DNA from: Escherichia coli
GTDB taxonomy: Bacteria; Pseudomonadota; Gammaproteobacteria; Enterobacterales; Enterobacteriaceae
Length of the DNA: 64,000 bases
NCBI RefSeq assembly: GCF_003334385.1
Contig: NZ_QOWN01000017.1
Direction: 5' to 3' (one strand)
Below, one piece after another: positions 18,701 through 21,700 of the stretch (position 1 is its first letter; each line of letters opens with the position of its first letter). The position numbers were made by a program.

Positions 18701-21700
18701 ATGGAGCTATGGGTATTTTCTGTACCCAATGATTTTAACAGCAATTAATTTCATAGGATGAAAGCTCAATGCATCAATCTGGTTCTGTTTCTCTTTGTCG
18801 TTCCGCAATATCTGTTCTGGTGGCTACAGCGTTATATTCACCCATAGCATTGGCATCAACTGTTGAGTATGGTGAGACAGTTGATGGTGTTGTCCTGGAA
18901 AAAGATATCCAGCTGGTTTATGGGACCGCCAATAATACGAAAATCAATCCTGGCGGAGAACAGCATATAAAAGAATTTGGTGTAAGTAATAATACTGAAA
19001 TTAACGGAGGGTATCAGTACATTGAAATGAATGGCGCCGCAGAATACTCAGTATTAAATGACGGTTATCAAATTGTTCAAATGGGTGGCGCGGCAAACCA
19101 GACTACGCTCAATAATGGTGTGCTACAGGTTTATGGCGCAGCGAATGATACCACGATTAAAGGCGGGCGCTTAATCGTTGAAAAAGATGGGGGGGCCGTC
19201 TTTGTCGCTATCGAAAAGGGAGGACTACTGGAGGTTAAAGAGGGGGGATTTGCATTTGCGGTAGATCAGAAAGCAGGCGGTGCTATTAAAACAACCACGC
19301 GGGCCATGGAGGTATTCGGAACAAACCGTCTCGGTCAGTTCGATATCAAGAATGGTATTGCTAATAATATGTTGTTGGAAAACGGCGGAAGTTTGCGAGT
19401 TGAAGAAAATGACTTCGCTTATAATACCACTGTAGATAGTGGCGGCTTACTGGAGGTTATGGATGGCGGGACTGTAACTGGCGTTGATAAAAAAGCAGGC
19501 GGAAAATTAATTGTCTCAACGAATGCGCTGGAAGTGAGTGGTCCAAACAGTAAAGGCCAATTTAGTATAAAAGATGGTGTGTCAAAAAATTATGAACTGG
19601 ATGATGGTTCCGGGCTCATTGTTATGGAGGACACGCAGGCCATTGATACTATCCTTGATAAGCATGCCACTATGCAATCGCTGGGAAAGGATACTGGTAC
19701 GAAAGTGCAGGCAAATGCGGTATATGATCTCGGTCGATCATATCAGAATGGAAGTATCACGTATTCCTCAAAAGCCATCTCTGAAAATATGGTTATCAAC
19801 AATGGCCGCGCTAACGTCTGGGCTGGCACAATGGTTAACGTTTCAGTCAGAGGGAATGATGGCATTCTTGAGGTCATGAAGCCGCAAATAAATTATGCAC
19901 CCGCAATGTTGGTGGGTAAGGTAGTGGTTTCTGAGGGCGCTTCTTTTAGAACGCATGGTGCCGTGGATACCAGCAAAGCGGACGTTTCGCTCGAAAATAG
20001 CGTATGGACCATCATTACCGATATCACTACGACGAACCAAAACACCCTCCTCAACTTAGCCAACCTTGCGATGTCTGACGCAAATGTGATTATGATGGAT
20101 GAGCCAGTGACTCGTTCATCAGTGATGGCAAGTGCGGAAAATTTCATTACGTTGACCACCAATACCCTGTCGGGAAACGGCAATTTTTATATGCGTACCG
20201 ATATGGCTAATCATCAGAGCGATCAGCTCAACGTCACCGGTCAGGCAACAGGTGATTTCAAAATATTCGTGACGGACACCGGTGCCAGCCCGGCAGCAGG
20301 AGATAGCCTTACACTGGTAACAACGGGCGGCGGTGATGCTGCATTTACGTTGGGCAATGCCGGAGGCGTTGTTGATATCGGTACGTATGAATATACCTTG
20401 CTGGATAATGGCAACCATAGCTGGAGTCTGGCAGAGAATCGCGCGCAAATTACCCCTTCAACCACTGATGTGCTGAATATGGCGGCCGCACAACCGCTGG
20501 TATTTGATGCAGAACTGGACACCGTGCGTGAGCGTCTTGGTAGCGTAAAAGGCGTTAGTTACGATACGGCGATGTGGAGTTCGGCAATTAACACCCGCAA
20601 CAACGTGACCACTGATGCGGGAGCTGGTTTTGAGCAAACATTGACGGGCCTGACGCTCGGTATCGATAGCCGTTTCTCCCGTGAAGAAAGCAGTACAATT
20701 CGCGGCTTGATCTTTGGTTACTCTCATTCTGATATTGGTTTTGATCGCGGCGGCAAAGGTAATATCGATAGCTATACCCTGGGGGCTTATGCCGGTTGGG
20801 AGCATCAGAACGGTGCCTATGTTGATGGGGTGGTGAAAGTTGACCGTTTTGCCAACACCATCCATGGCAAGATGAGTAATGGGGCAACAGCGTTTGGCGA
20901 TTACAATAGTAACGGCGCGGGTGCTCATGTTGAGAGCGGGTTCCGTTGGGTTGACGGATTGTGGAGTGTTAGACCCTATCTGGCCTTTACCGGCTTTACC
21001 ACAGATGGTCAGGACTACACGTTATCAAACGGCATGCGCGCGGATGTGGGAAATACCCGGATATTACGCGCTGAAGCGGGAACGGCGGTAAGCTATCACA
21101 TGGACCTGCAAAACGGTACGACGCTGGAACCCTGGCTGAAAGCGGCCGTGCGTCAGGAATACGCCGATTCTAACCAGGTGAAAGTTAATGACGATGGCAA
21201 ATTTAATAATGATGTGGCTGGAACCAGTGGCGTTTATCAGGCTGGTATAAGGTCATCGTTTACCCCGACGTTAAGCGGTCATTTGTCAGTCAGCTATGGC
21301 AATGGCGCAGGGGTAGAATCGCCGTGGAATACTCAGGCGGGTGTGGTCTGGACGTTCTGATAACAGAAAATAAACAGGCTGTGATGTGTCACGGTCTGTT
21401 TATCGAATTAATTGCAGATATAAAAAAACCAACCGTAAGGGTTGGTTTTTTCTTGGGATTTTTGGTCGGCACGAGAGGATTTGAACCTCCGACCCCCGAC
21501 ACCCCATGACGGTGCGCTACCAGGCTGCGCTACGTGCCGACTCGTGGCTGCTAATACTACCGTTTTCCACACCGATTGCAAGTAAGATATTTCGCTAACT
21601 GATTTATAATTAATCAGTTAGCGATAAAACGCTTCTCGTCTGTCAGCACTTGCAATAACAAACTTAACTGTGGTTTTTCATCTTTCACTCTTTCACCACG

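What the first reader, a model, noticed from the sequence alone, without database searches (positions are those of the whole stretch)
21592..21623. 12-bp palindrome overlapping the yejM stop codon, upstream of proL
cgctaactgatt…aatcagttagcg forms a perfect 12-bp stem whose right arm encodes the last residues and stop codon of yejM (minus strand). It sits about 55 nt upstream of the proL tRNA 5' end. It could act as a processing or termination structure separating yejM mRNA from the tRNA precursor, or as a protein-binding palindrome.
Basis: seen in the sequence. Interest (0 to 1): 0.2.

Follow-up and report, generated by a model that had tools for sequence, protein, structure and literature searches.

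The report
Conserved dyad upstream of proL promoter
The palindrome is real and conserved, but it looks like an ordinary upstream protein-binding site (most likely for Fis) of the proL tRNA promoter that happens to overlap the end of yejM, not an RNA processing or termination signal.

Summary
The palindrome exists and is slightly larger than reported: 21592-21624, with 13-bp perfect arms, a 7-nt spacer and its centre at 21608. Only 0.7% of simulated 64-kb windows contain one this long. The window is E. coli yejM(lapC)-proL.

The dyad lies directly upstream of the proL sigma-70 promoter (TTGCAA-16-TAGTAT), 27 bp from the -35, or about -61 from the inferred start. In 92 Enterobacterales sequences the long hairpin is not what is conserved. 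The conserved part is a 15-17 bp core, TGATT-N7-AATCA (TGCTT-N7-AAGCA in a Sodalis-like clade). G(-7) and C(+7) around an A/T-rich interior occur in 91 of 92.

The core stays 25-27 bp from the -35 while its distance to the stop codon ranges from overlapping it to 11 nt downstream. So it belongs to the promoter, not to the yejM 3' end. G-N13-C with an A/T-rich interior is the Fis signature, and the site sits one helical turn closer to the -35 than Fis site I of tyrT and rrnB P1.

There is no U-tract, no Term-seq 3' end, no Rfam hit and no consensus RNA fold.

Verdict: an ordinary upstream activating site, probably for Fis; binding was not tested. Interest is low.

The parts
21592..21624 (.). 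33-bp palindrome: arms TCGCTAACTGATT / AATCAGTTAGCGA (13 bp perfect), 7-nt spacer, centre 21608
21600..21616 (.). Conserved 17-bp core dyad TGATT-N7-AATCA. The distal half-site contains the yejM stop codon in E. coli.
   Evidence: The only occurrence in the window. Distal half TGATT in 75/76 Enterobacteriaceae species and proximal half AATCA in 61/76.
21601..21615 (.). 15-bp Fis-type core: G, 13 A/T, C. On the sense strand G(-7) is the middle base of the TGA stop codon.
   Evidence: motif definition from PMC3547828 and PMC3064808
21582..21599 (-). 18-nt stretch between the proximal half-site and the -35. Its first bases (21599-21592, read on the minus strand) form the outer part of the proximal arm, GTTAGCGA. 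The -35-proximal remainder is unconserved in sequence, but the total length is held at 16-18 nt.
21576..21581 (-). -35 hexamer TTGCAA of the proL sigma-70 promoter
   Evidence: Listed as TTGCAA-16-TAGTAT in Shimada 2014, PMC3946193. TTGCA is invariant in 76 species.
21554..21559 (-). -10 hexamer TAGTAT, with a 16-nt spacer to the -35 in 76/76 species. A G+C-rich discriminator follows. The transcription start is inferred at 21545-21549.
   Evidence: the start site is inferred, not mapped
21463..21539 (-). proL, tRNA-Pro(GGG)
21423..21451 (-). proL terminator hairpin (AAAAAACCAACC/GGTTGGTTTTTT). It is the only terminator-like structure downstream of yejM.
21614..23374 (-). yejM (lapC/pbgA) CDS, 586 aa. 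Its last two sense codons, GCT AAC, form the outer part of the distal arm, and their synonymous positions are invariant in 76/76 species.

Best explanation
The palindrome is a DNA-level, dyad-symmetric upstream element of the proL (tRNA-Pro GGG) sigma-70 promoter. Its centre lies 27 bp upstream of the first base of the -35 hexamer, about -61 (+/-2) from the inferred start. Its evolutionarily invariant part is a 15-bp core with G at -7, C at +7 and an A/T-rich interior, which is the signature of a Fis site. The proposed mechanism is that a Fis dimer binds the core in fast-growing cells and bends the DNA. From this class-I-type position, one helical turn closer to the promoter than the canonical -71 site of rrnB P1 and tyrT, it would help RNA polymerase (alpha-CTD) and raise proL transcription. 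The 13-bp perfect arms are an elaboration found in Escherichia, Citrobacter, Salmonella and Enterobacter. The upstream gene ends inside the site, so half of the palindrome is yejM's last codons and its stop codon. Shown: the palindrome, its conservation, its anchoring to the promoter, the G/C(+/-7) and A/T signature, and the promoter itself. Inferred: that the protein is Fis, and that it activates.
For: (1) Position. A constitutive RpoD promoter TTGCAA-16-TAGTAT between yejM and proL is listed in PMC3946193. Both hexamers and the 16-nt spacer are invariant in 76 Enterobacteriaceae species. (2) The core TGATT-N7-AATCA is kept in 75/76 species. It sits 16-18 nt from the -35 even though most of the intervening sequence is randomised. 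(3) It is anchored to the promoter, not to the stop codon. The stop lies inside the core in 39 species and 4 nt upstream of it in 35. In the Sodalis-like clade the stop is 1-2 nt upstream, and 11 nt upstream in L091, yet the core stays 17 nt from the -35. (4) Across 92 sequences, G(-7) and C(+7) are present in 91, centred 25-27 bp from the -35, with 9-13 of 13 interior bases A/T. This includes a clade (YejM ending RFIDTH) that has lost all other dyad symmetry: GGATAAAAAAAGCGC. (5) This matches the published Fis motif: a 15-bp AT-rich target with G at position 1 and C at position 15 (PMC3547828; PMC3064808). Fis occupies essentially all consensus motifs in vivo (PMC9104697). (6) G-W13-C occurs only 4 times in the 64-kb window, against 0.66 expected. 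(7) Positive controls. At the textbook -71 positions, tyrT and rrnB P1 carry G-N13-C cores 36 and 35 bp from the -35. The proL core is 26-27 bp away, 9-10 bp closer, and so on about the same helical face. The tyrT UAS likewise abuts the 3' end of the upstream gene purU. (8) The promoter has the G+C-rich discriminator typical of growth-rate-controlled stable-RNA promoters.
Against: No direct Fis occupancy or fis-dependence data for proL could be retrieved. Fis sites are normally degenerate, and nothing about Fis explains why T(-8), TT(-5,-4), AA(+4,+5) and A(+8) are so strongly conserved. Fis also does not explain why the outer arms GCTAAC/GTTAGC (positions +/-9 to +/-14) are conserved in 39 species, or why pair +/-15 covaries. 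The change at +/-6 between clades is symmetric (A.T to C.G), which Fis does not require. The site is not at the canonical -71. RNA polymerase holoenzyme selects this promoter without any factor, so an activator is not strictly needed.
Confidence: 0.5

Rival explanations
1. The dyad is the operator of a different sequence-specific dimeric DNA-binding protein, not yet identified. This could be an activator at a class-I position, or a repressor or roadblock that insulates the proL promoter from yejLM read-through. It would read a 27-33 bp site, CTnAnTGATT-N7-AATCAnTnAG.
For: Conservation is stronger and more symmetric than is usual for Fis. The half-sites TGATT/AATCA are nearly invariant. Positions +/-10, +/-12 and +/-13 are kept in both registers. 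The symmetric switch to TGCTT/AAGCA in another clade is what a homodimer reading both halves would give. The fixed 16-18 nt distance to the -35 fits any promoter-bound factor. Synonymous sites of the last two yejM codons are invariant in 76/76 species.
Against: I could not match the dyad to any E. coli regulator's motif that I know (CRP, FNR, LexA, ArgR, Fur, Lrp, IHF, ArcA, PmrA and LysR-type T-N11-A were compared by eye and from memory). No regulator gene is adjacent to or divergent from the site. A clade that has lost the dyad keeps only G, an A-tract and C, which fits Fis better than a specific operator. tRNA promoters are not known targets of dedicated regulators.
Confidence: 0.2
2. The element acts as an RNA hairpin in yejLM read-through transcripts. 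With no terminator between yejM and proL, the transcripts run into proL and are cut by RNase P or RNase E. The stem at the stop codon would then block 3' exonucleases and stabilise yejLM mRNA, or guide processing.
For: There is no terminator between yejM and proL. The E. coli RNA hairpin is strong: -18 kcal/mol for the local segment, and z < -2 in 66/76 Enterobacteriaceae. One outer pair, the synonymous Ile third base and its partner, covaries as C-G 19, T-A 8 (Fisher p = 0.001, not corrected for phylogeny). The clade-level change A.T to C.G at +/-6 is compensatory.
Against: No U-tract follows the stem. Term-seq lists 3' ends only at 2284559 and 2286287, and none near 2286158. RNAalifold gives no consensus structure, and Rfam has no hit. 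The sense strand is no more stable than the antisense strand (-12.3 versus -13.4 kcal/mol). Stability falls to -2.5 to -7 kcal/mol in Kluyvera, Kosakonia and Pluralibacter, to about -3.5 (5 bp) in the Sodalis-like clade, and to nothing in the RFIDTH clade. The element tracks the -35, not the stop codon. A ribosome terminating at the stop codon would melt the stem.
Confidence: 0.15
3. Only the short core is functional. The long perfect arms are a by-product with no function of their own. One arm is frozen by coding (Ala-Asn-stop), and the other would be repeatedly copied from it by hairpin-templated (quasi-palindrome) mutation during replication, or would match simply by descent.
For: The outer arms are perfect only in some genera and exist in two alternative registers. 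Outside the core Enterobacteriaceae they are not complementary. The distal arm is constrained by the protein's C-terminus RFIAN. Template-switch correction of quasi-palindromes is an established mutational process in E. coli (established knowledge, not tested here).
Against: The non-coding arm GTTAGC is kept in 35-39 of 39 group-1 species while the sequence just downstream of it is randomised. Synonymous sites of GCT and AAC are invariant even where they lie outside the dyad. Both observations argue for selection beyond the core.
Confidence: 0.1

Closest known systems
Fis site I of the upstream activating sequences of tyrT and rrnB P1 (stable-RNA promoters)
   Same: A 15-bp G-N13-C core with an A/T-rich centre, upstream of a sigma-70 stable-RNA promoter that has a 16-nt spacer and a G+C-rich discriminator. 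The tyrT UAS also runs up to the 3' end of the upstream gene, purU.
   Different: It is centred 26-27 bp from the -35 instead of 35-36 bp, so about -61 rather than -71. It appears to be a single site, not three. It is far more symmetric and conserved than typical Fis sites, and it extends into a 33-bp perfect palindrome that contains a stop codon. Fis binding was not demonstrated here.
Class I activator sites such as CRP at lac (-61.5)
   Same: A dyad-symmetric site for a dimer, about 26 bp upstream of the -35 hexamer, where an activator contacts the alpha-CTD (geometry; established knowledge).
   Different: The sequence is unrelated to TGTGA-N6-TCACA. The half-site spacing is 7, not 6.
Intrinsic terminators and 3' stabilising stem-loops between co-transcribed mRNA and tRNA genes (for example secG-leuU)
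   Same: A stem-loop at the end of an ORF just upstream of a tRNA gene, with no other terminator in between.
   Different: The stem is A/U-rich, has no U-tract and overlaps the stop codon. No 3' end is mapped there, and the structure is not conserved beyond the core Enterobacteriaceae.

Membership tests
Fis binding site (UAS of a stable-RNA promoter) | 15-bp core with G at position 1 (-7) and C at position 15 (+7) | tested here: met
   GATTAATTATAAATC on the sense strand, window 21615..21601. G(-7) and C(+7) are present in 91/92 related sequences. Definition from PMC3547828.
Fis binding site (UAS of a stable-RNA promoter) | A/T-rich interior (A/T tract) | tested here: met
   13/13 A/T in the window and 9-13/13 in all 91. 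Definition from PMC3064808 and PMC9104697.
Fis binding site (UAS of a stable-RNA promoter) | Located upstream of the core promoter on the activating helical face (canonical centre -71) | tested here: inconclusive
   The centre is 26-27 bp from the -35, against 35-36 bp for tyrT and rrnB P1 site I. That is 9-10 bp closer, so about the same face, but it is not the canonical position. The TSS is not mapped.
Fis binding site (UAS of a stable-RNA promoter) | Fis occupancy (footprint, EMSA or ChIP) and fis-dependent activation | not testable with these tools
   No site-level Fis data for proL is held in the supplements searched. The literature search found nothing specific.
Intrinsic (Rho-independent) terminator | G+C-rich stem followed by a U-tract | tested here: not met
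   5 of 13 stem pairs are G-C. The stem is followed by AAATATCTTAC on the sense strand and ATAAAACGC on the other. The scan finds no terminator-like site at the palindrome.
Intrinsic terminator / stable mRNA 3' end | An RNA 3' end mapped at the base of the hairpin | tested here: not met
   The Term-seq tables of PMC7815308 list 2284559 and 2286287 only. This is absence in one dataset for a weakly expressed gene.
Conserved cis-regulatory RNA structure | A consensus fold supported by covariation, stable across relatives | tested here: not met
   RNAalifold predicts 0 pairs. Only 1 of 13 pairs has changes on both sides. The antisense strand is as stable as the sense strand. The hairpin is lost or reduced to 5 bp outside the core Enterobacteriaceae. 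There is no Rfam match.
UP element | An A/T-rich block contiguous with the -35 (about -38 to -59) that binds the alpha-CTD | tested here: not met
   The 17 nt next to the -35 are unconserved and G+C-rich in most species. The A/T core spans about -54 to -68.

The most novel reading that the evidence does not exclude
The 27-33 bp dyad (CTnAnTGATT-N7-AATCAnTnAG) is not merely a Fis site. It would be the operator of an uncharacterised sequence-specific dimer, or a dual-use DNA/RNA element. In either case the yejM stop codon, the invariant synonymous sites of its last two codons and the proL promoter would be read together, coupling expression of the essential LPS regulator YejM/LapC to tRNA-Pro(GGG) synthesis.
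Probability: 0.12. Interest if true: 0.45.

Novelty: new member of a known kind. Interest (0 to 1): 0.2.

Why it matters
If the reading is right, this adds one more, unusually well-conserved, upstream activator site to the set controlling stable-RNA promoters. It is a clear example of a promoter element embedded in the last codons and stop codon of the upstream gene, where it constrains synonymous sites. There are practical consequences. Deletions or 3' tags of yejM/lapC, an essential and much-studied LPS regulator, will remove or displace the proL upstream element. A TGA-to-TAA change of the yejM stop codon would alter the key G(-7) of the site without changing the protein. It does not bear on any long-standing open question.

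Tried and rejected
Approaches that led nowhere:
- The promoter/terminator scanner found nothing at the site. It also missed the weak-consensus proL promoter, so the promoter assignment rests on PMC3946193 and on conservation.
- Rfam gave only the tRNA.
- The first homologous-protein search returned only ~100%-identical E. coli entries and was useless for sampling divergence. Divergent relatives came from the search of protein representatives with the look-up of encoding contigs and from a proL-variant DNA pattern run against metagenomes.
- YejM homologues at ~40% identity (L087-L089) have no tRNA downstream, so they are uninformative.
- Searches for a mapped proL TSS, for operon maps and for Fis ChIP tables found nothing held as text.
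- Mentions of 'proL' in the yejM papers were all 'prolonged' or 'proliferate'.

Readings considered and rejected:
- Intrinsic terminator: no U-tract.
- RNase III site: the stem is too short.
- UP element: wrong position, and the spacer is G+C-rich.
- Antisense promoter using the TATAAT in the spacer: no -35 or extended -10, and the loop sequence is not conserved.
- loxP/dif-like recombinase core (13-7-13 architecture next to a tRNA gene): the arms are not conserved outside the core Enterobacteriaceae, no integrase or island junction is present, and the dyad is fixed relative to the -35.
- CRP, FNR, LexA, ArgR, Fur, IHF, Lrp, ArcA, PmrA and LysR-type boxes: half-site sequence or spacing does not fit (comparison from memory, not a database scan).
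- A second Fis-like core 20 bp upstream (GAAGCGTTTTATCGC): its G(-7) is a variable synonymous site, so it is not conserved.
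Full report
OBSERVATION. The window around the finding is the E. coli yejM(lapC/pbgA)-proL locus, and all 5,426 complete E. coli genomes carry it. On the minus strand, yejM (586 aa) runs 23374..21614 and ends ...RFIAN-TGA. proL, tRNA-Pro(GGG), is 21539..21463. A hairpin with a T-run at 21423-21451 is the proL terminator. The reported 12-nt arms are exact: CGCTAACTGATT at 21593-21604 and its reverse complement at 21612-21623. The symmetry is larger than reported. There are 13 perfect pairs (21592/21624) around a 7-nt spacer. Read as DNA, the arms are 16 nt with one mismatch around a single central base, 21608. A perfect stem of at least 13 bp with a loop of at most 10 nt occurred in 0.7% of 150 Markov simulations of the window.

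WHERE IT SITS. Genomic SELEX with RpoD holoenzyme lists a constitutive promoter between yejM and proL, TTGCAA-16-TAGTAT (PMC3946193). In the window these are the -35 at 21581..21576 and the -10 at 21559..21554. A G+C-rich discriminator (TAGCAGCCAC) follows, resembling that of rRNA promoters. The start site is not mapped in any table I could reach, so I infer it at 21545-21549. The palindrome centre is 27 bp upstream of the first base of the -35, which is about -61 +/- 2. So the palindrome is the DNA immediately upstream of a tRNA promoter.

CONSERVATION IN ENTEROBACTERIACEAE. Within E. coli the element is fixed apart from one G-to-A change at the outer end of the proL-proximal arm. I fetched 80 orthologous loci from species-representative genomes with YejM 78-99% identical and aligned 76 distinct sequences (A2). 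The -35 (TTGCA), the 16-nt spacer (76/76) and the -10 (TAsTAT) are invariant. Upstream of them a 17-bp core, TGATT-N7-AATCA, is kept: the distal half in 75/76 and the proximal half in 61/76, with single substitutions in the rest. It lies 16, 17 or 18 nt from the -35 (18, 50 and 8 species), although most of the intervening sequence is randomised. Two registers exist relative to the coding sequence. In 39 species (Escherichia, Citrobacter, Salmonella, Enterobacter, Lelliottia, Leclercia) the TGA stop lies inside the TGATT half-site. In 35 species (Klebsiella, Raoultella, Kosakonia, Kluyvera, Phytobacter, Pluralibacter) the core is 4 nt further downstream and wholly intergenic. The outer arms remain largely complementary in both registers. 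Group 1 has GCTAAC/GTTAGC at +/-9 to +/-14. Klebsiella has CTGATTGATT/AATCAATCAG, with matching extra bases on both arms. The outermost group-1 pair, between the synonymous third base of the Ile codon and its partner, covaries: C-G 19, T-A 8, C-A 6 (Fisher p = 0.001, uncorrected for phylogeny). The third bases of the last two sense codons (GCT, AAC) are invariant in 76/76 species, whereas each of the 12 preceding codons varies at its third base.

RNA OR DNA? The E. coli transcript can form a strong hairpin: -18 kcal/mol for the local segment, and z = -2.6 for the 121-nt context. The RNA-level tests are otherwise negative.
- No U-tract follows the stem on either strand, and the scanner calls no terminator there.
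- Rfam has no match.
- RNAalifold returns no consensus structure on A2.
- In the named structure 84.5% of cells pair, against 12-37% when slid, but only 1 of 13 pairs shows changes on both sides. The signal is therefore mainly sequence conservation.
- The sense strand folds no better than the antisense strand, -12.3 versus -13.4 kcal/mol on average. Stability ranges from -18 down to -2.5 kcal/mol (Kluyvera) while the core is kept.
- Term-seq tables (PMC7815308) list 3' ends at 2284559 (inside yejM) and 2286287 (the proL 3' end). They list none near 2286158, the downstream base of the hairpin (K-12 coordinates).

THE DECISIVE COMPARISON. I reached more distant relatives in two ways. One was a 62%-identical YejM from Sodalis sp. 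RH19, which has the same yejK-yejL-yejM-proL synteny. The other was a metagenome scan with the proL variant of that clade.
- In the clade whose YejM ends RFIAN-TAA, the core is TGCTT-N7-AAGCA. Both half-sites changed symmetrically at +/-6 (A.T to C.G). The core lies 17 nt from the -35 in nearly all sequences.
- The stop codon is 1-2 nt upstream of that core. In L091 an insertion puts it 11 nt upstream, yet the distance to the -35 is unchanged.
- The outer arms are not complementary in this clade (CTGCTT/AAGCAA), and the RNA fold is typically only -2 to -5 kcal/mol (range -2.2 to -9.3).
- A further clade (YejM ending RFIDTH) has no dyad at all. In the same frame it reads GGATAAAAAAAGCGC, which is G, an A-tract and C.
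- Over all 92 distinct sequences, 91 have G(-7) and C(+7) with 9-13 of 13 interior bases A/T, centred 25-27 bp from the -35.
The element therefore travels with the proL promoter, not with the yejM 3' end. Its deepest conserved feature is G-N13-C with an A/T-rich centre.

IDENTITY OF THE SITE. [quoted passage not shown] ChIP-exo found Fis on essentially all consensus motifs (PMC9104697). G-W13-C occurs 4 times in this 64-kb window against 0.66 expected. As positive controls I read tyrT and rrnB P1 from K-12. At the textbook -71 positions of Fis site I (positions recalled from the literature, not from a tool), both carry G-N13-C cores: GGATGAAAATTACGC and GGTTGAATGTTGCGC. These are centred 36 and 35 bp from the first base of the -35. 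The proL core is 26-27 bp from the -35. That is one helical turn closer, on roughly the same face, and equivalent to the -61 class-I position. The tyrT UAS also abuts the 3' end of the upstream gene purU, so a promoter element overlapping the end of an upstream ORF is not unusual for tRNA genes.

WHAT REMAINS UNEXPLAINED. Fis sites are usually degenerate, but this one is unusually symmetric and conserved at +/-4, 5, 8, 10, 12 and 13. The outer arms are maintained in many genera. The +/-6 change between clades is symmetric. The synonymous sites of the last two codons are invariant even in species where they lie outside the dyad. These points leave room for three things: another dimeric protein, a secondary RNA or DNA hairpin role in the core Enterobacteriaceae, or hairpin-templated mutation copying the coding-constrained arm onto the other. 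I found no direct Fis-binding or fis-dependence data for proL.

VERDICT. The palindrome is real, non-random and conserved. The best-supported reading (confidence about 0.5) is a Fis-type upstream activating site of the proL promoter that overlaps the yejM stop codon. A different DNA-binding dimer (0.2), an RNA hairpin role (0.15) and a partly non-selected extension of the arms (0.1) are the rivals. The 'processing/termination structure' alternative is not. This is a new, well-resolved member of a known kind of element, and interest is low (0.2).

Noticed in passing
L020 (Lelliottia nimipressuralis CCUG 25894), about 2830-2900: proL is interrupted after its first ~12 nt (CGGCACGTAGCG then unrelated sequence), while the dyad and promoter upstream are intact. 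This may be an insertion into the tRNA gene or an assembly problem.
   Followed up: no
window 21576-21584 and 21648-21656: A second, outer inverted repeat, ATTGCAAGT/ACTTGCAAT, encloses the palindrome in the predicted RNA fold and includes the -35 hexamer (itself the palindrome TTGCAA). The alignment shows it only in Escherichia and a few Citrobacter and Salmonella sequences, so it is probably fortuitous.
   Followed up: partly
window 21617-21622 (codons GCT AAC of yejM): The synonymous third positions of the last two sense codons are invariant in 76/76 species, including the 35 species where these codons lie outside the dyad. Pairing or the Fis core does not explain this. Translation-termination context or a wider protein footprint might.
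   Followed up: partly
window 3734-3766: The longest palindrome in the window (15-bp G+C-rich stem, GCCACATCCGGCATGGTATGCCGGATGTGGC), followed by GCTGATAAGACGCGCCAGCGTCGCATCAGGC. It looks like a REP/BIME-type repeat.
   Followed up: no
window 24905-24932: AAAAAACCCCGCCGGAGCGGGGTTTTTT: a symmetric G+C-rich hairpin with A- and T-runs on either side, just downstream of the 335-aa ORF 23803-24810 (yejK). It is probably a bidirectional intrinsic terminator.
   Followed up: no
window 21423-21451 compared with L001-L004: The proL terminator keeps its stem (CCAACC/GGTTGG) while the loop and inner stem bases differ between E. coli lineages (CTTAC, GTAAA, TATTGC, TTTAC). This hairpin tolerates variation in a way the palindrome does not.
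   Followed up: no
window 18769-21360 (+): yejO is an intact 863-aa autotransporter ORF here, whereas K-12 MG1655 annotates it as an interrupted pseudogene. So the window is not from K-12.
   Followed up: no
window 38774-38788, 51731-51745, 60768-60782: Three further G-W13-C (Fis-core-like) 15-mers occur in the window. Their context was not examined.
   Followed up: no
L116 (K-12 1286500-1288500): purU ends about 160 nt upstream of tyrT, so the three-site Fis UAS of tyrT reaches the purU stop codon. This parallels the yejM-proL arrangement.
   Followed up: partly
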